Assembly (NCBI GenBank): GCA_964428655.1
Contig: CAYRYE010000001.1
Location: forward strand, 218,258-282,257
Reading direction: 5' to 3'
Length of the DNA stretch: 64,000 nt
From: an uncultured Gammaproteobacteria bacterium
GTDB taxonomy: Bacteria > Patescibacteriota > Microgenomatia > UBA12405 > JAHJSD01
Under the pieces are notes generated by a model. That model saw only the letters and a list, made by a program, of their open reading frames with translations, was not told the origin of the DNA and did not search any database. Position numbers and translations under genes: made by a program. This document shows positions 23,999 through 48,885 of the stretch, piece after piece; position 1 is the first letter of the stretch; every line of letters begins with the position of its first letter.

Positions 23999-24154
23999 TT
24001 TCAGGTCACCTCCTTTTTGTCACTCAAAGTTAAAAGTAAATTTCGTTTAACGTTTAGGTATATCTGAAGTTTAGCAAAAACCTTGAGTTTTATCAAAGAA
24101 ACCATGAAAAACAATTATTTCACTGATGACTAAACTTATATGTTATAATATAGG

Positions 24155-24595
24155 CTATGAGAATAATTGTGCTAGATAGCTGTCGAGGATTGGTTAGTGA
24201 AGTTACAGAAGGGCGGAAAAAAGGCCATGAATTGGGTCGACGTTTTGTTAGGAACCAGAGAGCAGTAGCTCAAAGCGGAGATCCGAAAATAAGGCGGGCG
24301 TGTGGTCCAGCCGCTCGAAGGGCGATCAGTGAAGGAATTTTAGGTGAACCCAATAGTAATGTAAGAGTAAGGGATTTTGTTGCTGACGCACTACTTCCGT
24401 CCGAAAGTCCGCTTAGCTTGTTAATACCCACAGGAAGAGAACTTCGGTCAAGGGTAAGAAGAGTGGGAAGAAACGTGGGGTTTGTGCAGGGAGTAAGTGA
24501 AGAGTTGGGTGGTTTAGGAAACATTGATCAATTGGTTCCGAGACCTAAACAAAGAGGAAGATAGCTTCATCAGTCTAAAGACAATTGTTTTTTTA
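24155..24595 (+). ncRNA. Candidate structured ncRNA (purine-rich, GC-enriched; contains GAAAGUCCG; identity unresolved: RNase P RNA or another housekeeping RNA?)
   Basis: Extended -10 TGTTATAAT at about 24139-24147. Downstream about 440 nt has GC content visibly above the surroundings. The only long ORF on either strand is Arg-rich and lacks an SD. The locus ends in a palindrome (ACAATTGT) plus U7. Confidence 0.35.
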
Positions 24596-24672: not shown

Positions 24673-25095
24673 TTATTTTAGTAATCTTACTTTTTGAACT
24701 GTATTTTCAAAGTTTTTCATCAATTCGTGTTCCCAAATTCTAATAACTTTCCAAGTTTTCTTCTTGTAATATCTATTAACCTTTTTATCTCTTGTCTTAT
24801 TTCGTTCAATTTTGCCTGTCCAATATTTTTTATTTGTCGACGGCATTCTGCAATGTTTTTTACAACCGTGCCAAAAACAAGAATCAATAAAAATTACTGT
24901 TTTATATTTTTTCAAAACCAAATCAGGTTTTCCAAAATATTTTGTTGAATTTTTTCGATACCTAAGTCCAGCTTTCCAAATCGCTTTTCTAAAATCAACC
25001 TCAATCTTACTATCCCTACTCCTCACTTTTGACATTATTTCACTTCTTTGCTGCTTCGAAACTGTATCTGTCATCTCAGTCGTTAAAAAGCTCAA
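24673..25095 (-). CDS. vsr: Very-short-patch-repair endonuclease (Vsr, T:G mismatch-specific)
   Basis: IFIDSCFWHGC motif diagnostic of the Vsr family; overlaps the upstream gene by 20 nt. Confidence 0.88.
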   Translation of the reverse strand: MSFLTTEMTDTVSKQQRSEIMSKVRSRDSKIEVDFRKAIWKAGLRYRKNSTKYFGKPDLVLKKYKTVIFIDSCFWHGCKKHCRMPSTNKKYWTGKIERNKTRDKKVNRYYKKKTWKVIRIWEHELMKNFENTVQKVRLLK

Positions 25096-25837
25096 CAGGA
25101 TTTATTTTAAATTGAAGCATTTTTGAAGTATCTCGTCCCGCATCCCCTCCTTTCCTTTGCATTCCGATTCTCCCAATTTTTAAACTGCCTTGCGATGTTA
25201 TTTTAACATCGCCGTCTCCAAAAACATTCATGGCCTCGTTTATTGACTTCAGTATCCATCTACTACTGTCATTAATTTTTAGAATCACCAAAACCCAGTC
25301 GGCAGAAAATTCTCCCCTGCCCTTTAACAAATCGGAGACAATCAAAATTTTGTTATTTTCAAAAAATCTTACAACTTTATCTTGATCGTCTTTATTCATT
25401 TCTGTTAAAAACATTCTCCGCTTGTCTTTTAATCCCTTTTTGATCGGCTTTAGCTCCCCGGTAAAAAGCTTCAGGATTTTTGCGATATCTTCCGGGATGT
25501 TCCAAAGTTCAATATACTTATCAACCCATCTTTTGTCTATTTGGTTAAATCCTTGAGGATTGCTAACAAGTTTTACTTGCAGGTTTTGCAAGTCCTCTTG
25601 AGATTTTAACTTAATGATAATTTTAACTCTAACTTGAACATCAGCTTTGTACTGTCCGCGAACTTTTTCTGCTTTTACATATTCAATGTCTGAAATACTA
25701 TAACCCATAACTTCTAACCACTTTTGAGCCGTTTTGTCTTTTTTCCAATCGTTAAAACGATTAATTACGTTTTTTTCGTTTCTGAAACCGCCTTTTGCGA
25801 TTTGAGAACCTAATTTCGCTAACTGTTTTTTATTCAT
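25076..25837 (-). CDS. Probable Type II restriction endonuclease (cognate of the adjacent C5-MTase; size and layout resemble HhaI/HinP1I/MspI-type enzymes)
   Basis: Sits between the m5C-MTase and vsr with 4-nt and 20-nt junctions; no other recognisable family. The call rests on context. Confidence 0.45.
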   Translation of the reverse strand: MNKKQLAKLGSQIAKGGFRNEKNVINRFNDWKKDKTAQKWLEVMGYSISDIEYVKAEKVRGQYKADVQVRVKIIIKLKSQEDLQNLQVKLVSNPQGFNQIDKRWVDKYIELWNIPEDIAKILKLFTGELKPIKKGLKDKRRMFLTEMNKDDQDKVVRFFENNKILIVSDLLKGRGEFSADWVLVILKINDSSRWILKSINEAMNVFGDGDVKITSQGSLKIGRIGMQRKGGDAGRDTSKMLQFKINPVELFND

Positions 25838-25841
25838 AAAT

Positions 25842-26819
25842 TCAATTTAAGTAATTTAATAAACTTTGACCAAATGATTCAACGACATTTACGGTCATGG
25901 CGTTCCCCGCCTGACTTAACAAATCAGTGTCCGAAATTTTACCTTTGACTTTTTTTGACAACTTTTCGGGAAACCCTTGTAACAACAAAGATTCATATCC
26001 AGACAGTTTTCTAAATTTTCCGCCCCTCACATATAAAATACCATGCCTCCCTTTTCTAAGAGTTGGCACTTTGCCACGATATAGGCGCAAGTCAGATTGG
26101 CGAGTATCAATGACTAAAAATTGTTCTTTTAATAACTCATTGATTGAAAATTTACCTTTGTTGTATTTATTTTCCAAATATCTCAAAAAGGTTTGATAGG
26201 CTCTTTTCTTTTCATGAAACTCTAACTCATTAGTGTCAATCAAATATTCTTTTAATTCCGGTTTTTTAACTGATTGTGGAAAATTAAAAGCGTTACCGTT
26301 TCTTAAATCCTTCCGCACACCAATAAAATAAATTCTCTCCCTCATTTGCGGAACTCCATAGCACAAACTGCTTACTAGTTTCCAATAAACTTTATAACCA
26401 GCCTTTTCTAGCTCGCTTAAAATGTTTTTAAAAGACTGTCCATTGCCATGATTCAGTAAACCCTTTACATTTTCCAGAATGAAATATTTCAGATTTTTCG
26501 CTTTCATTATGTTTATCAACCCATAAATAATCTGACCTCGCGGATCGCACATTCCAGTTCTTTGTCCAATGACTGAGAAGGTTTGACATGGAAAGCCTGC
26601 AATCATCAAGTCAAAGCCCGGCAAGTCATCTGGAGTTATCTTCATCAAATCACCATAATTAGCTTCATTTTTTCCAAAAAATACCCTATATGTTTCTTCG
26701 GCTTTTCTATTAATTTCCGAAAAACCCACACATTTCATTCCACTATTTTCAAGACCAATTCTCCCCCCGCCAATACCAGCACAAAAATCTATAAATTTCA
26801 GTTTCTTGTTCAATGCCAT
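25842..26819 (-). CDS. DNA (cytosine-5)-methyltransferase
   Basis: Motif I FCAGIGG, IV GFPCQ, VI ENVKGL, VIII QMRERIY, X GNAM; an NHGNG stretch after motif VI resembles M.HhaI-like enzymes. Confidence 0.9.
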   Translation of the reverse strand: MALNKKLKFIDFCAGIGGGRIGLENSGMKCVGFSEINRKAEETYRVFFGKNEANYGDLMKITPDDLPGFDLMIAGFPCQTFSVIGQRTGMCDPRGQIIYGLINIMKAKNLKYFILENVKGLLNHGNGQSFKNILSELEKAGYKVYWKLVSSLCYGVPQMRERIYFIGVRKDLRNGNAFNFPQSVKKPELKEYLIDTNELEFHEKKRAYQTFLRYLENKYNKGKFSINELLKEQFLVIDTRQSDLRLYRGKVPTLRKGRHGILYVRGGKFRKLSGYESLLLQGFPEKLSKKVKGKISDTDLLSQAGNAMTVNVVESFGQSLLNYLN

Positions 26820-26890
26820 AATTTCATTTTACTAAAAATTTCTATTAATTCGTATTGCCTTTGTTTTTTTAAGACAAAACCAATAGAAAA

Positions 26891-27892
26891 CTAAGACTTA
26901 CTAGGTCTCTCCTTATTTTTTTTACGTGACCTTTCAACAAAGTGCTCAACTTTGTCTTTCCAACCAGAAATATGGGGGACTCTATTAAACTCCTTTCCAT
27001 GTCTACCAGACAAGAGCTCTGTTCTGGTGCACTTACTCAGCTCTTGCCAATTACTATACATAATATAAATAGCATTTCCGTATTCAACGTTTTCAAAAAC
27101 TACTAGATCTTTTTCTAAAAGTGCACCAAAGTAACGTTGTATTCCGCTCATTCCGTAAACAAGCTTTTTGGGCCTAAGTTTTTTAAAAAAGTCGTATCTT
27201 TCTCCAGCAGTCTTTTTCTTTTCCTCTGGAACGGGCGATTTATATCCGGCAAAAATTCTATCCACAACTTCTTCTCGGGTCCCTGGTGGAAGAATTATCC
27301 AATCAACCTTTGTTGTTTGTAAGTAATCATTGAATGAGGCATTTGCTTTTTGAACCCCGCACATGCCAATATTTTCCTGAAGGATATTTAAACACTTTAA
27401 CAGATCTCTTTCAAAATTTGGATCTTTTCTGTCAAGCACGCTATCTAGCTCAAATGTAAGCACATACTGCTTTTTATTCTTACCTTTTTCCTTGGTATTA
27501 ATTTTGACACAAATATGTTCTGGTCCATAAAAATCTCGTGGATATTTCCTGTATGGAAGGTCGACACGATGGGACCCATTGTACCAATCTCCATAATTAG
27601 GACATTCAACCGAATTATAATGAGTTTCCTTGGGGAGGTCTTTACGAATAACTGCATATCCATCGATATTTCTCCTGCTGTATTTTCCACTAGTCACTGG
27701 AGGAACCGCAGGATCTTCAGGAACAATGAGCTCCTCGTTGCTTAAATGAATGCCAAGATGTTTAAGTTCTCCTTGTAGTAACTGTTGAGAAGAAACAATT
27801 TTAAGACATGCTGCTACAATATAACGTTCATTGAGTCTTTTTAATTGCACGTGTACAAGTTTTGGAATCTTCCGAATATTTTTTTTAGCCAT
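26891..27892 (-). CDS. Hypothetical protein (333 aa), translationally coupled to lexA
   Basis: Start overlaps the lexA stop by 8 nt; no recognisable motif. Confidence 0.6.
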   Translation of the reverse strand: MAKKNIRKIPKLVHVQLKRLNERYIVAACLKIVSSQQLLQGELKHLGIHLSNEELIVPEDPAVPPVTSGKYSRRNIDGYAVIRKDLPKETHYNSVECPNYGDWYNGSHRVDLPYRKYPRDFYGPEHICVKINTKEKGKNKKQYVLTFELDSVLDRKDPNFERDLLKCLNILQENIGMCGVQKANASFNDYLQTTKVDWIILPPGTREEVVDRIFAGYKSPVPEEKKKTAGERYDFFKKLRPKKLVYGMSGIQRYFGALLEKDLVVFENVEYGNAIYIMYSNWQELSKCTRTELLSGRHGKEFNRVPHISGWKDKVEHFVERSRKKNKERPSKS

Positions 27893-28523
27893 GCTGGTTT
27901 TGATAATTAATAGGTATTACGCTAACAACAACACCCTGAACTTTAAAGTCATTTGTTAAAATAATTGGTTTATTTTTTGGGTTGGATGACTTTGGCTTCA
28001 ATACAATTGCATTCCCGACGTGATTATATTCCTTAATAGTGGTCTCATCGTCTATTAGAGCAACCACTCGATCTTTATTTTTGGCCGTTGATTGCTGACG
28101 AATCAATACCAAATTACCATCGTTAATGCCAGCCAAATCCATAGAATCTCCGGATGCACGGAGAATAAAGTATTTCGACCCGGATTTAAGCATAGACGTA
28201 GTGACTGGAATATTACCTTCTATGTTTTCTTCTGATAGTAAAGGCATACCGCACGCGACCATTCCAACAAGCGGAATGTCTTGGGTTTGAGCATGAGTTA
28301 AATTTGACTGAGGATCTTTTATCAATTGATATTTTCCGGATTTTATCTTTTTTAACACATTCTTTTTTTCAAGTTTTTCTAATATATCTTGAGCTGATCT
28401 AGGAGATTTATAGCCAAGAGCCTTCATAAGCTGACGCACTGATGGACTCGATCCATTATGCACCAAAGAATTTCTAATATGCCTTATTGCTTGAAACTCT
28501 TTTTTGCTTAGTTGTTTTTCCAT
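27885..28523 (-). CDS. lexA: LexA repressor (wHTH plus S24 peptidase)
   Basis: N-terminal LexA wHTH (LGYKSPRSAQDILEKLEKKNVL); C-terminal GDSM catalytic Ser and downstream Lys. Confidence 0.88.
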   Translation of the reverse strand: MEKQLSKKEFQAIRHIRNSLVHNGSSPSVRQLMKALGYKSPRSAQDILEKLEKKNVLKKIKSGKYQLIKDPQSNLTHAQTQDIPLVGMVACGMPLLSEENIEGNIPVTTSMLKSGSKYFILRASGDSMDLAGINDGNLVLIRQQSTAKNKDRVVALIDDETTIKEYNHVGNAIVLKPKSSNPKNKPIILTNDFKVQGVVVSVIPINYQNQHG

Positions 28524-28532
28524 ACTGTTTGT

Positions 28533-28561
28533 ATGTTACCGTATGTTTTAATCCTTGTCAA
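28533..28561 (-). promoter_or_regulatory. sigma70-like promoter for lexA (-35 TTGACA, 17-nt spacer, -10 TAACAT), overlapped by a GTATGTT-N3-GTATGTT direct repeat
   Basis: Read from the minus strand: TTGACAaggattaaaacatacggTAACATacaaacagtATG. Confidence 0.5.
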
Positions 28562-28746: not shown

Positions 28747-28823
28747 TGGTCGGGGATGCCGGACTCGAACCGGCGGCCTCGCGCACCCCATGCGCGCGCG
28801 CTAACCAACTGCGCCAATCCCCG
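28747..28823 (-). tRNA. tRNA-Pro (anticodon GGG)
   Basis: 77-nt cloverleaf folded by hand: C1-G72 acceptor stem, GCGC D-stem, loop AUGGGGU (G37), TTCGAGT T-loop, encoded CCA. Confidence 0.85.
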
Positions 28824-28838
28824 TTTCATTGGTTGTAT

Positions 28839-28857
28839 TTTAACATGAATTGTGTTA
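28839..28857 (+). promoter_or_regulatory. Inverted repeat TTAACA-N7-TGTTAA upstream of recA (candidate SOS operator)
   Basis: Perfect 6-bp inverted repeat about 35 nt upstream of the recA ATG. Confidence 0.35.
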
Positions 28858-28891
28858 AAAAAAGTAATATCATTGATTCGTTGAAAGGGGT

Positions 28892-29920
28892 TTGATGACT
28901 GGAAAAAGAGACGAGAAAAAACAAAAGGCTCAAGCTGTGAAGATAGCAATGGCGCAGATTGAAAAGCAATATGGCAAAGGCTCGATAATGAAGATGGGGT
29001 TAAAACAGAGGAGATTGGAAGTAGATGCCATTTCCACAGGATGTTTGCCTTTGGATATTGCTTTGGGAGTTGGCGGTATTCCTCTTGGGAGAGTAACAGA
29101 GATTTTTGGTCCCGAAGCTTCGGGGAAAACAACTATTTGTCTTCATATTATTACTGAAGCTCAGAAAATGGGTGGATCGGCAGCCTTTATTGATGTTGAA
29201 CATGCTTTGGATCCGAGCAGGGCCAAAGCAATTGGTGTTAAACTGGAGGATCTGATTATTTCTCAACCCGATACTGGAGAGCAGGCTTTAGAAATTGTCG
29301 AGACTTTAGTTAGGTCAGGGGGATTAGATATTGTTGTTGTTGACTCAGTAGCCGCTTTAGTACCTAAAAGTGAAATTGAAGGCCAAATGGGTGATGCTTC
29401 TATTGGAGTTCAGGCAAGGTTGATGTCTCAAGCTTTGAGAAAATTAACGGGAGCAATTTCTAGATCAAAAACGGCTGTTATTTTTACTAATCAAATTAGG
29501 CACAAGATTGGAGTTTTCTTTGGTAATCCCGAAACGACTTCGGGTGGTTTGGCATTAAAGTTCTATTCTTCGGTGAGAATAGATTTAAGAAGAAGAGCAA
29601 GTATTAAAAATTCCCAGGGGGTAGTTATTGGCTCAATGCATAAAGCTAAGGTGGTTAAGAATAAGGTGGCGCCTCCATTTAGAGAGGCAGAGTTTGAGAT
29701 TTTAAATATTGGTGGAGTTTCCAAGATGGGCAGTTTGCTTGATGCAGGTATTCAGGTTAAAGTTGTTGTTCAGAGTGGAGCCTTCTATAAATACGGGAAA
29801 ATTAACCTGGGGCGAGGACGAGAAGCGGCAAAACAATTTTTGACAGGAAATCCTAAATTGGTTAAGGAAATTGAGAAGAAAATTTGGAATGTGATTGAAA
29901 GTGCTTCTTCAACCTTTTAG
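28892..29920 (+). CDS. recA: Recombinase RecA
   Basis: Walker [10 protein letters not shown]; L1/L2 loop regions; 342 aa. Confidence 0.95.
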
Positions 29921-47530: not shown

Positions 47531-48522
47531 TGGAAAAGGTTAAGAAGATTGAAATCTCTCATAGAACAATAGTCTTCTCTGTTTTATTTCTCGTCGCTAT
47601 TTGGTTTCTCTATCAAATAAGGGAAATTTTGTTAGCCCTTTTTATTTCCATAATCCTAATGGGAGCTATTAATCCTACCGTTGATCGTTTGGAGAGGTGG
47701 CGCTTGCCTCGTTGGCTGGCAATCCTTTTGATTTATCTTGTTTTATTGAGTTTAATAATTACTGCCATTGCTGGTTTGATTCCTCCCTTAGTTGATCAAA
47801 CCAGTCGATTGGTACAGGTAGTAATTGACCTTTCTGACAGACTTTCCTTTTTGGGACTCTCTTCGGAGAAAATAAGATTACAAATTCAAGAGCTGGGAGC
47901 GTTACCAACTCAGATATTAAAACTGGCAGTTTCGATATTCTCTAATATTATTGCTATCTTTGCCATTTTAGTAATCACTTTTTATTTGCTTCTGGAGCAT
48001 AAAAACTTGGATAGATATCTTTTCTTTCTTTTTGGTCAGAAGCGTAGAGAAAGAGCTAAAAGAGTAGTCGGCAAGCTGGAAAAAAAGCTTGGCGGCTGGG
48101 TCAGGGCAGAGTTACTTTTGATGACAATTATTGGTTTGCTTTCATACATTGGTTTTCGCTTGCTGGATCTCCAATTTGCTTTGCCTCTGGCGATCTTGGC
48201 CGGACTGTTGGAAGTCGTTCCCAATATTGGTCCTACTTTATCAGCGGTGCCAGCTGTTGCCATAGGATTGTTAGAATCATCTCTGATTGGTCTTTTAGTT
48301 TTGGCCTGGACTTTTATTATTCAACAATTGGAAAACAATTTGATTGTTCCTAAGCTAATGCAGAAAACCGTTGGGGTCAATCCTTTGATCACAATTTTGA
48401 CATTAGCGGTTGGTTTTAAACTAGCGGGGGTAATGGGGGCTGTTCTGGCAATTCCAGTTTATCTGGCAATTGAAGTAGTTGTTTCAGAGTTTATCTCTTT
48501 AAAAAAAGCCAAAGGCCAATAA
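47530..48522 (+). CDS. AI-2E family transporter (PerM/YhhT-like membrane protein)
   Basis: About 8 TM helices; AI-2E/UPF0118 architecture. Confidence 0.75.
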   Translation: MEKVKKIEISHRTIVFSVLFLVAIWFLYQIREILLALFISIILMGAINPTVDRLERWRLPRWLAILLIYLVLLSLIITAIAGLIPPLVDQTSRLVQVVIDLSDRLSFLGLSSEKIRLQIQELGALPTQILKLAVSIFSNIIAIFAILVITFYLLLEHKNLDRYLFFLFGQKRRERAKRVVGKLEKKLGGWVRAELLLMTIIGLLSYIGFRLLDLQFALPLAILAGLLEVVPNIGPTLSAVPAVAIGLLESSLIGLLVLAWTFIIQQLENNLIVPKLMQKTVGVNPLITILTLAVGFKLAGVMGAVLAIPVYLAIEVVVSEFISLKKAKGQ

Positions 48523-48540
48523 GCCAGATTCTGTTTTTTC

Positions 48541-48725
48541 CGATATGTTTTATGTATCGGAACTGGATTCATCTATCTATGCTCTCCACCTGGTGTTAAT
48601 GAGGGAGGCTTCTCAACACCGATTTGAGATTGCTCAAAGGAGGGTTGCCTCGTTTCACCCCCGATATGTTTTATGTATCGGGACTCGTCTCTGTGGCCCT
48701 ATCTCGTCCCCCGATATTTCGGGGA
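48541..48725. repeat. Cluster of short perfect hairpins: two copies of CCGATA-TGTTTTATG-TATCGG (48541-48561, 48662-48682) and CCCCGA-TATT-TCGGGG (48710-48725)
   Basis: Seen directly in the sequence, in a 360-bp non-coding stretch. Confidence 0.7.
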
Positions 48726-48885
48726 AGTTCTAACTTGCGTTAGAACACTTTGCCTCCGCGAGTCTGGACTTTCCTGATCGAAATTTCGACCCGAATCCTT
48801 AGCCTTTAACCAGATATATTATACCATGGAATGCAGGAAAAAGCCCCTCATGCGTAAAAGAGAGGCTTTTTCAAGTTAACGAGCT

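What the first reader, a model, noticed from the sequence alone, without database searches (positions are those of the whole stretch)
24673..26819. HhaI-like m5C methyltransferase with candidate REase and Vsr repair endonuclease
The MTase has all canonical m5C motifs, plus an NHGNG stretch after motif VI reminiscent of M.HhaI. Its size (325 aa) and its partner (253 aa) match HhaI/HinP1I-type systems. The Vsr gene (FIDSCFWHGC) immediately downstream is the classical countermeasure to 5mC-to-T deamination at the methylated site. The REase assignment rests on context only, and specificity cannot be read from the sequence.
Basis: partly seen in the sequence, partly recalled or inferred. Interest (0 to 1): 0.5.

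Follow-up and report, generated by a model that had tools for sequence, protein, structure and literature searches.

The report
HinP1I-type restriction system with Vsr
This is an ordinary, apparently intact three-gene bacterial defence unit: a DNA cytosine methylase, a HinP1I-family restriction enzyme that most likely cuts GCGC, and a Vsr enzyme that repairs the mutations cytosine methylation causes. It sits in a small-genome Patescibacteria bacterium and is a new member of a well-known kind.

Summary
Three tightly packed minus-strand genes occupy 24673-26819.

- **Methyltransferase:** 325 aa, m5C type (PF00145, E 4e-70), with all motifs present.
- **Restriction enzyme:** the 253-aa partner is a full-length R.HinP1I homologue, no longer just a contextual guess. 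It scores PF11463 E 3.5e-89 and is 49% identical to PDB 1YNM. HinP1I residues E18, D62, Q81, K83 and F91 are all conserved.
- **Vsr:** 133 aa from the ATG at 25074 (TIGR00632 131 bits). E25, D51, C66, F67, W68, H69 and W86 are conserved.

The likely target is G(5mC)GC. One label needs correcting. The methylase resembles M.HhaI only in its catalytic half (37% identity). Its target-recognition domain (TRD) is about 10% identical and belongs to a second lineage that pairs with HinP1I-type enzymes.

Among 80 related genome loci, the methylase lies directly upstream in 66 of 76 and Vsr directly downstream in 31 of 71. The cassette is common in Patescibacteria and also occurs in DPANN archaea. This copy lacks the small controller (C) gene found in 12 of 43 relatives.

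It lies 71 nt after a mobile LexA-like gene plus an uncharacterised 333-aa gene, which is the more interesting neighbour.

Verdict: real, functional-looking, ordinary.

The parts
25842..26819 (-). m5C DNA methyltransferase (325 aa), 'lineage A' partner of HinP1I-family REases; predicted product G(5mC)GC
   Evidence: PF00145 E 4.3e-70 and TIGR00675 270 bits. The best PDB match is M.HhaI at E 1.2e-40. Motifs I, IV (PCQ), VI (ENV), VIII, IX and X are present. The TRD 'IDTRQSDLRLYRGKVPTLRKGRHG' is shared with MTases upstream of R.HinP1I homologues in 49 genome loci.
25076..25837 (-). Type IIP restriction endonuclease of the HinP1I family (253 aa); predicted G^CGC
   Evidence: PF11463 E 3.5e-89 and PADLOC REase_II E 4.7e-103. 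PDB 1YNM R.HinP1I matches at E 2.2e-81 over residues 6-252. Identity is 49%, and E21, D66, Q87, K89 and F97 equal HinP1I E18, D62, Q81, K83 and F91.
24673..25074 (-). Vsr very-short-patch-repair T:G mismatch endonuclease (133 aa from the ATG at 25074; an alternative TTG at 25095 would give 140 aa and a 20-nt overlap with R)
   Evidence: PF03852 E 3.9e-29 and TIGR00632 131.5 bits. PDB 1CW0 E. coli Vsr matches at E 4e-17. E25, D51, C66, F67, W68, H69 and W86 (W85 here) are conserved, and H64 is replaced by D. Homologues in L005, L018 and other loci start at the position of the ATG. Both start calls exist in public gene sets.
26820..26890 (-). 71-nt leader between the upstream 333-aa gene and M; it holds no controller (C) gene
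   Evidence: No sigma-70-like promoter or intrinsic terminator was predicted in the gap. Twelve of 43 related cassettes carry a 64-75 aa HTH_3 C-protein gene ending at the M start, and this copy has none.
26891..28523 (-). Adjacent module, not part of the R-M system: a LexA-like self-cleaving repressor (28523..27885) overlapping by 8 nt an uncharacterised 333-aa gene (27892..26891). Together with M-R-V it forms a small defence-island-like block next to tRNA-Pro (28747-28823).
   Evidence: LexA_DNA_bind plus Peptidase_S24, TIGR00498 153 bits. The 333-aa protein has no hit in Pfam, NCBIfam, PHROGs or PADLOC. The same gene pair recurs in other phyla among R-M, CBASS, Shedu and recombinase genes. 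The window LexA-like protein is 57-69% identical to those partners.

Best explanation
This is an intact Type IIP restriction-modification operon of the HinP1I kind with a linked Vsr repair gene (M-R-V), carried as a horizontally mobile cassette in a Patescibacteria genome.

The proposed mechanism has three parts.
- **Modification:** the m5C methyltransferase flips out and methylates the inner cytosine of GCGC. That protects the roughly 80 GCGC sites per 64 kb of host DNA.
- **Restriction:** the HinP1I-family endonuclease acts as a monomer with a single catalytic site (E21, D66, Q87, K89). [quoted passage not shown]
- **Repair:** spontaneous deamination of G(5mC)GC gives a T:G mismatch. Vsr nicks 5' of the T so that a short patch is resynthesised and C:G is restored.

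What is shown: gene integrity, family membership, conservation of catalytic residues, operon packing and conserved synteny. What is inferred: the GCGC specificity, the activity in vivo, and the sequence context that Vsr recognises.

Expression is probably coupled. The gaps are 4 nt (M to R) and 1 nt (R to Vsr). This copy has no C protein. It may be transcribed from a weak promoter of its own or by read-through from the upstream LexA-like operon. This last point is speculative.
For: **Family assignments.** The scores are well above curated cut-offs.

**The endonuclease.** R aligns over its full length with crystallised R.HinP1I (E 2.2e-81). The residues I recall as catalytic or intercalating in HinP1I (E18, D62, Q81, K83, F91) carry those letters in the 1YNM sequence, and they are invariant across the alignment. 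The blocks QVKLVSN..GFNQIDK.W and QRKGGD.GR.T..MLQFKI.P.ELF are identical or nearly identical to HinP1I.

**The methyltransferase.** M has all the m5C motifs.

**Vsr.** It keeps E25, D51, C66, F67, W68, H69 and W86.

**Synteny in 80 genome loci.** An m5C MTase lies directly upstream of the R homologue in 66 of 76 loci. Vsr lies directly downstream in 31 of 71.

**Need for protection.** There are 80 GCGC sites in the window, so an active R requires an active M.

**Mobility and distribution.** Thousands of homologues at 75-85% identity occur in Patescibacteria. Plasmid-borne copies occur in Spiroplasma citri. The cassette has G+C 0.34-0.35 against about 0.385 for the window.

**Literature.** HinP1I cuts G^CGC as a monomer, one strand at a time (PMC4081073, PMC1874628, PMC2978348). 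Vsr genes are classically linked to, and co-transcribed with, m5C MTase genes (PMC12907096).
Against: - There is no biochemical or methylome evidence.
- GCGC is not avoided in the window (observed/expected 0.87, unremarkable among 4-mer palindromes). Genome composition therefore gives no independent support for long-term restriction at GCGC.
- The MTase TRD is about 10% identical to the only structurally characterised GCGC MTase, M.HhaI. Its specificity rests on partnership with the REase, not on recognisable recognition loops.
- No convincing promoter was found upstream of M.
- The Zn-site ligands of Vsr differ in kind and spacing from E. coli: C66, C71, a 'KKHC' segment, and H116 in place of C117.
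Confidence: 0.85

Rival explanations
1. The architecture is as described, but the recognition sequence is not GCGC: the REase and MTase have co-diverged to another short site.
For: R is only 49% identical to R.HinP1I. The MTase TRD does not resemble the HhaI TRD. Specificity was not measured.
Against: Catalytic and intercalating residues, and the two long blocks that are near-identical to HinP1I, are invariant from Haemophilus to Patescibacteria. R homologues pair interchangeably with this MTase lineage and with a true HhaI-TRD lineage that is 53-59% identical to M.HhaI, a GCGC enzyme. That pattern is most simply explained if all of them protect the same site.
Confidence: 0.08
2. The restriction gene is silent or inactive, so the unit works in effect as a solitary GCGC methylase plus Vsr, with an epigenetic or genome-maintenance role. 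The model is H. pylori, where the GCGC MTase M.Hpy99III is kept while its REase is usually lost.
For: In H. pylori the REase gene is present in only 61 of 459 strains while the MTase is universal (PMC6412003). There is no GCGC avoidance in the window. No clear promoter and no C-protein control were found here.
Against: R is full-length with no frameshift or stop codon. All residues that are invariant across the family are intact. R is translationally packed between M and Vsr. The identical protein was recovered from several independent samples.
Confidence: 0.07
3. The Vsr-like gene acts mainly as a stabiliser (addiction element) of the methylase, or as an accessory nickase, and not as a mutation-avoidance repair enzyme.
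For: In Caulobacter a Vsr-like protein causes an SOS response and fitness loss when its cognate m5C MTase is deleted, and the authors propose that vsr genes stabilise MTase genes (PMC12907096). Vsr travels with the cassette across phyla and domains.
Against: This reading does not exclude repair. All residues of the E. coli repair enzyme that contact the mismatch or catalyse nicking are conserved. The gene is dispensable to the cassette, being absent in 40 of 71 loci, which fits an accessory repair function.
Confidence: 0.1

Closest known systems
HinP1I restriction-modification system of Haemophilus influenzae P1 (R.HinP1I, PDB 1YNM/2FKC; G^CGC)
   Same: The REase belongs to the same family (PF11463) and is of similar length (253 aa against 247 aa). 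It is 49% identical, with E18, D62, Q81, K83 and F91 conserved. An m5C MTase lies immediately upstream.
   Different: The host is a Patescibacteria MAG, whereas a 2012 survey listed this family as proteobacterial (PMC3424549). A Vsr gene is appended.
M.HhaI (GCGC m5C methyltransferase, PDB 1MHT and others)
   Same: It is the best solved-structure match (E 1.2e-40). The catalytic domain is 37% identical, including the 'SHDNGNT / NHGNGQS' stretch after motif VI. The Q..R and T-L elements of the TRD are loosely retained: RQSDLRLY...PTL here against GQGERIY...ITL in HhaI.
   Different: The TRD is about 10% identical, and the second recognition loop (SAYGGGIFAKTGG) is replaced by a shorter RKGRHG. 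The cognate REase is HinP1I-type. R.HhaI is, from my own knowledge, an unrelated enzyme that cuts GCG^C.
E. coli dcm-vsr operon and Neisseria R-M-linked Vsr genes
   Same: The Vsr gene lies directly downstream of, and is packed with, genes of an m5C methylation system. Catalytic and intercalating residues are conserved (PMC12907096).
   Different: Here Vsr follows the REase gene, not the MTase gene. The expected mismatch context is GTGC/GCGC, not CTWGG. H64 is replaced by D, and the Zn ligands are rearranged.
Hpy99III system of Helicobacter pylori (JHP1049/JHP1050; G(5mC)GC)
   Same: It is a GCGC m5C R-M system. A Helicobacter saguini locus (L065) carries an MTase of the window's lineage (51% identical) next to an R.HinP1I homologue (PMC6412003).
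   Different: In H. pylori the REase is mostly lost and the MTase acts as a regulator. I could not verify directly that M.Hpy99III belongs to the same MTase lineage.
C-protein-controlled Type II R-M cassettes
   Same: Twelve of 43 close relatives of this cassette have a 64-75 aa HTH_3 gene ending at the M start, giving the order C-M-R-(V).
   Different: The window copy has no C gene.

Membership tests
HinP1I-family Type IIP restriction endonuclease (PF11463) | Full-length match to the family profile above the curated cut-off | tested here: met
   298.2 bits against a cut-off of 25; residues 44-251 cover profile positions 1-208 of 208. Full-length alignment to 1YNM at E 2.2e-81.
HinP1I-family Type IIP restriction endonuclease (PF11463) | Catalytic residues E18, D62, Q81, K83 (SDX18QXK variant of PD-(D/E)XK) and the intercalating F91. 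The residue list is from my own knowledge; the letters were checked against the 1YNM sequence. | tested here: met
   E21, D66, Q87, K89 and F97 align to those positions and are invariant in 10 sequences.
HinP1I-family Type IIP restriction endonuclease (PF11463) | Cleavage of G^CGC, blocked by m5C | not testable with these tools
   Inferred only from homology and from the partner MTase lineages.
Type II R-M system | A cognate MTase gene adjacent to the REase gene, conserved across relatives | tested here: met
   The gap is 4 nt here. An m5C MTase lies directly upstream in 66 of 76 related genome loci.
C5-cytosine DNA methyltransferase (PF00145 / TIGR00675) | Conserved motifs I (FxGxG), IV (PCQ), VI (ENV), VIII (QxRxR), IX and X (GN), and a score above the cut-off | tested here: met
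   FCAGIGG, GFPCQTFS, ENVKG, QMRER, RKLSGYE and QAGNAMTVNV are present. Scores are 237 bits against a cut-off of 22 and 270 bits against 100.65.
M.HhaI-type methyltransferase (HhaI TRD) | HhaI target-recognition loops (GKGGQGER ... TLSAYGGG) | tested here: not met
   The TRD region is about 10% identical to M.HhaI (6 of 57 aligned residues), and the second loop is shortened. Other partners of R.HinP1I homologues do carry the HhaI loops.
Vsr very-short-patch repair endonuclease (PF03852 / TIGR00632) | Profile match above the cut-off | tested here: met
   131.5 bits against a cut-off of 97.85. PF03852 E 3.9e-29. 1CW0 E 4e-17.
Vsr very-short-patch repair endonuclease (PF03852 / TIGR00632) | Catalytic D51 and H69 (plus E25) and DNA-intercalating F67, W68 and W86. 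The residue list is from my own knowledge of the E. coli enzyme; the letters were checked. | tested here: met
   All are conserved at the same numbering when translation starts at the ATG at 25074. H64 is D here, as in all cassette-linked homologues aligned.
Vsr very-short-patch repair endonuclease (PF03852 / TIGR00632) | Structural Zn site (E. coli C66, H71, C73, C117) | tested here: inconclusive
   C66 is kept. Position 71 is C. A 'KKHC' segment offers H and C with shifted spacing. C117 aligns with H116. Four ligands are plausible, but this is not shown.
Vsr very-short-patch repair endonuclease (PF03852 / TIGR00632) | Nicking 5' of T in a T:G mismatch within the cognate methylation site | not testable with these tools
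Genetic linkage to an m5C MTase is met.
C-protein-regulated R-M operon | A small HTH controller gene upstream of, or overlapping, M or R | tested here: not met
   There is no such ORF, or remnant of one, in the 71-nt leader. It is present in 12 of 43 related loci.

The most novel reading that the evidence does not exclude
This R-M-Vsr operon has no controller gene and no recognisable promoter. It may be expressed by read-through from the upstream operon of a self-cleaving LexA-like repressor and an uncharacterised 333-aa protein. The whole 3.9-kb block (24673-28523) would then be a composite, DNA-damage-triggered defence island whose 333-aa member is a new defence effector.

The evidence is indirect.
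- The LexA-like/333-aa pair is a mobile two-gene module found across phyla among R-M, CBASS, Shedu and recombinase genes.
- Unrelated LexA genes sit directly next to this same R-M cassette in five other Patescibacteria loci.
- Against direct control, the module's operator-like site (28524-28542) is found only at the module's own promoter and not upstream of M.
Probability: 0.1. Interest if true: 0.6.

Novelty: new member of a known kind. Interest (0 to 1): 0.17.

Why it matters
For the finding itself, very little changes. It adds one more predicted GCGC R-M system with a linked Vsr. It would be annotated correctly by Pfam and REBASE-style pipelines, and relatives are already named 'type II restriction endonuclease' in NCBI.

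There are three modest points of value.
- The REase assignment is now homology-based, so specificity can be predicted. That is useful for anyone trying to transform or cultivate these uncultured episymbionts: GCGC pre-methylation of incoming DNA would be advisable.
- The HinP1I-type cassette turns out to be very widespread in ultra-small Patescibacteria and in DPANN archaea. It comes with two interchangeable MTase lineages and with optional C and Vsr genes. This illustrates modular, cross-domain mobility of an R-M unit that includes Vsr.
- The neighbouring LexA-like/333-aa module is an unannotated, defence-island-associated gene pair that merits its own look.

Tried and rejected
- **Island boundaries:** I looked for att-like direct repeats of the tRNA-Pro 3' end or other repeats flanking the block. 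Only short, low-identity, AT-rich matches were found.
- **Promoter and terminator for the operon:** neither was predicted in the 71-nt leader. The promoter-like count in the region does not exceed that of shuffled sequence.
- **LexA-type operator upstream of M:**
  - The lexA-like promoter carries ACGGT-N9-ACAGT (28524-28542), which resembles the sites in L093, L085 and L091.
  - No second exact copy exists in the window, and none lies upstream of M or recA.
  - A 13-of-14 nt match between the M leader and the recA leader is A-rich and not convincing.
- **GCGC avoidance or excess of deamination products:** observed/expected is 0.87 for GCGC and 0.78/0.79 for GTGC/GCAC, which is not informative.
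- **GC-rich segment 24150-24560:** there was no meaningful Rfam hit (only MIR815, E 0.39, far below its gathering score), no tmRNA, and a folding z-score of -0.93.
- **Primary HinP1I structure papers (PMC1074309, PMC1363774):** these are not held. The catalytic-residue list is therefore from my own knowledge, checked only against the letters in the 1YNM sequence.
- **Phage copies:** none were found in the phage collection.
Full report
**1. What is there**

Three minus-strand ORFs fill the reported interval exactly.
- M: 26819..25842, 325 aa.
- R: 25837..25076, 253 aa.
- Vsr: ending at 24673.

The sequence shows 4 nt between the M stop and the R ATG. It also shows an ATG at 25074, one base after the R stop. 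Homologous Vsr genes in related loci start at that position. With that start the protein has the same numbering as E. coli Vsr. I therefore take 25074..24673 (133 aa) as the gene. The TTG at 25095, which would give 140 aa and a 20-nt overlap, is the alternative. Both calls exist in public gene sets.

**2. Family assignments**

*Profile and structure-database matches*
- M matches PF00145 (E 4.3e-70) and TIGR00675 (270 bits against a cut-off of 100.65).
- R matches PF11463 'R.HinP1I restriction endonuclease' (E 3.5e-89, full profile).
- Vsr matches PF03852 (E 3.9e-29) and TIGR00632 (131.5 bits against 97.85).
- PADLOC gives MTase_II, REase_II and Vsr.
- Against solved structures, R aligns over residues 6-252 with R.HinP1I (1YNM, E 2.2e-81). 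M is closest to M.HhaI (E 1.2e-40). Vsr is closest to E. coli Vsr (1CW0, E 4e-17).

*Key residues*
- R is 49% identical to R.HinP1I. The residues I recall as its active site (E18, D62, Q81, K83) and its DNA-intercalating F91 have those letters in the 1YNM sequence. They align to E21, D66, Q87, K89 and F97 here and are invariant in the alignment.
- Vsr keeps E25, D51, C66, F67, W68, H69 and W86. H64 is D, as in all cassette-linked homologues. The Zn ligands are rearranged.

**3. Specificity, and the 'HhaI-like' label**

HinP1I cuts G^CGC as a monomer, one strand at a time (PMC4081073, PMC1874628, PMC2978348).

The window MTase is 31% identical to M.HhaI overall. It is 37% identical in the catalytic part and about 10% identical in the TRD.

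Aligning MTases found next to R.HinP1I homologues reveals two lineages.
- **Lineage A**, which includes the window, has the TRD IDTRQSDLRLYR.KVPTLR.GRHG.
- **Lineage B** has the HhaI recognition loops (GKGGQGERIYS...AITLSAYGGG) and is 53-59% identical to M.HhaI.

Both lineages serve the same REase family, so GCGC is the parsimonious target for both. It is an inference.

A Helicobacter saguini locus pairs a lineage-A MTase with an R.HinP1I homologue. H. pylori has a characterised G(5mC)GC system (PMC6412003). I could not verify that its MTase is lineage A.

**4. Conservation and distribution**

- R has 5,749 detectable relatives and M has 3,678. Many are 75-85% identical and named, where named at all, as Patescibacteria proteins.
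- The identical R protein occurs on a 428-kb JGI metagenome contig and in several SRA assemblies.
- A scan of species-representative genomes returned 80 loci from Patescibacteria, DPANN archaea, Bdellovibrionota, Bacteroidota, Campylobacter, Helicobacter and others.
- An m5C MTase is directly upstream in 66 of 76 loci: 49 of lineage A and 17 of lineage B. Vsr is directly downstream in 31 of 71 loci, with either lineage.
- Copies occur on Spiroplasma citri plasmids and none in the phage collection.
- G+C of the cassette is 0.34-0.35 against about 0.385 for the window.

Together these results describe a modular, horizontally mobile M-R-(V) cassette.

**5. Is it likely active?**

- All three ORFs are intact, with family-invariant residues in place.
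- The window has 80 GCGC sites, so an active R needs an active M.
- GCGC is not avoided (observed/expected 0.87). GTGC and GCAC are not enriched (0.78 and 0.79). Composition therefore neither supports nor contradicts activity.

**6. Regulation**

Twelve of 43 lineage-A relatives have a 64-75 aa HTH_3 controller gene ending at the M start. Five have a LexA-type gene adjacent. Twenty-six have neither.

The window has no C gene. The 71-nt leader has no predicted sigma-70-like promoter or terminator. Read-through from the upstream operon is possible but unproven.

**7. Surroundings**

*The upstream genes.* Upstream on the same strand are tRNA-Pro (28747-28823), a LexA-like gene (28523..27885) and a 333-aa gene that overlaps it by 8 nt (27892..26891). 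The LexA-like protein has LexA_DNA_bind plus Peptidase_S24 and scores 153 bits on TIGR00498. It has a Cys-Gly at the cleavage position and the GDSM and K motifs.

*The 333-aa protein has no known relatives.*
- It has no hit in four profile libraries.
- It has 407 unnamed relatives, and 1,653 clusters at 50% identity match its profile. The 150 listed are all no longer than about 350 aa.

*Its genomic contexts elsewhere.*
- In four of seven other contexts examined it again follows a LexA-like gene closely, directly or after one small ORF (L085, L087, L091, L093).
- In L094 a LexA-like gene lies about 2.7 kb upstream, with CBASS genes in between.
- L089 and L095 have no LexA-like gene nearby.
- The neighbourhoods are rich in R-M genes, CBASS (CD-NTase and Cap15), Shedu, GmrSD, serine recombinases and integrases.

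*The LexA-like gene travels with it.* The window LexA-like protein is 57-69% identical to three of those partners, including one from Thermodesulfobacteriota. It is only 27-30% identical to the LexA genes next to the cassette in other Patescibacteria, and 34% identical to E. coli LexA. The pair therefore looks like a mobile two-gene module, and 24673-28523 looks like a small defence island.

*Its operator.* The module promoter carries a conserved operator-like site (28524-28542) that has no second copy upstream of M or recA.

**8. Verdict**

The system is HinP1I-type. The MTase is HhaI-like only in its catalytic half. It is a new member of a well-known kind, and interest in the finding itself is low. 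The LexA-like/333-aa neighbour is the item worth a separate follow-up.

Noticed in passing
[not shown]
   Followed up: partly
L006, L014, L018 (same strand, upstream of M); L024, L029 (divergent from M): In five other Patescibacteria-type loci, a LexA gene (27-30% identical to the window's, so not the same module) lies immediately next to the MTase of this same HinP1I-type cassette. That is far more often than chance adjacency in genomes of roughly 1,000 genes would give. L014/L018 and L024/L029 each look like shared arrangements, so there are about three independent cases. The cause is unexplained: an insertion hot spot, or LexA standing in for a C protein.
   Followed up: partly
L005, L007, L019-L021, L026, L031-L033, L035, L038, L016: Related cassettes carry a 64-75 aa HTH_3 (XRE-type) controller-protein gene ending at the MTase start codon (C-M-R-V). 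The window copy lacks it. L023 and L039 look as if they carry frameshifted remnants of the C gene, judged by eye from the upstream sequence.
   Followed up: yes
L054, L070 (Gammaproteobacteria / Thiodubiliella MAGs), L016 (Leptospiria MAG): The MTase and the HinP1I-type REase are read as one continuous ORF of about 584 aa (an M~R fusion). This is unusual for a Type IIP system. Assembly or sequencing error was not excluded.
   Followed up: no
L013, L027, L043-L049, L052, L055, L058, L064, L066, L078, L082: R.HinP1I homologues in DPANN archaea, Bacteroidota and some Patescibacteria are paired with a different MTase lineage that is truly HhaI-like (53-59% identical to M.HhaI, with HhaI recognition loops). 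These are often also followed by Vsr. The REase family therefore swaps MTase partners and crosses the bacteria/archaea boundary at 60-66% identity.
   Followed up: partly
window 24141-24564 (+): A segment of 48% G+C in surroundings of about 35% is preceded by TGTTATAAT (24141-24149). It contains a 135-aa arginine-rich ORF with no family hit. There is no meaningful Rfam match (only MIR815 at E 0.39) and no tmRNA. The RNA fold is no more stable than shuffled sequence (z = -0.93). Its nature is unknown: an orphan gene, an acquired fragment or an unstructured RNA.
   Followed up: partly
window 28840-28858 (+), upstream of recA (28892-29920): A near-perfect palindrome, TTAACATGAATTGTGTTAA, lies in the recA leader. 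It differs from the operator-like site at the LexA-like gene's own promoter (ACGGTAACATACAAACAGT, 28524-28542). This suggests that recA is controlled by a different regulator, perhaps the true host LexA.
   Followed up: no
window 48504-48810 (-): Bacterial type A RNase P RNA, only just above the Rfam gathering score (106.2 against 100 bits). At 307 nt it is short for the 367-position model, consistent with a reduced RNA in a small-genome organism.
   Followed up: no
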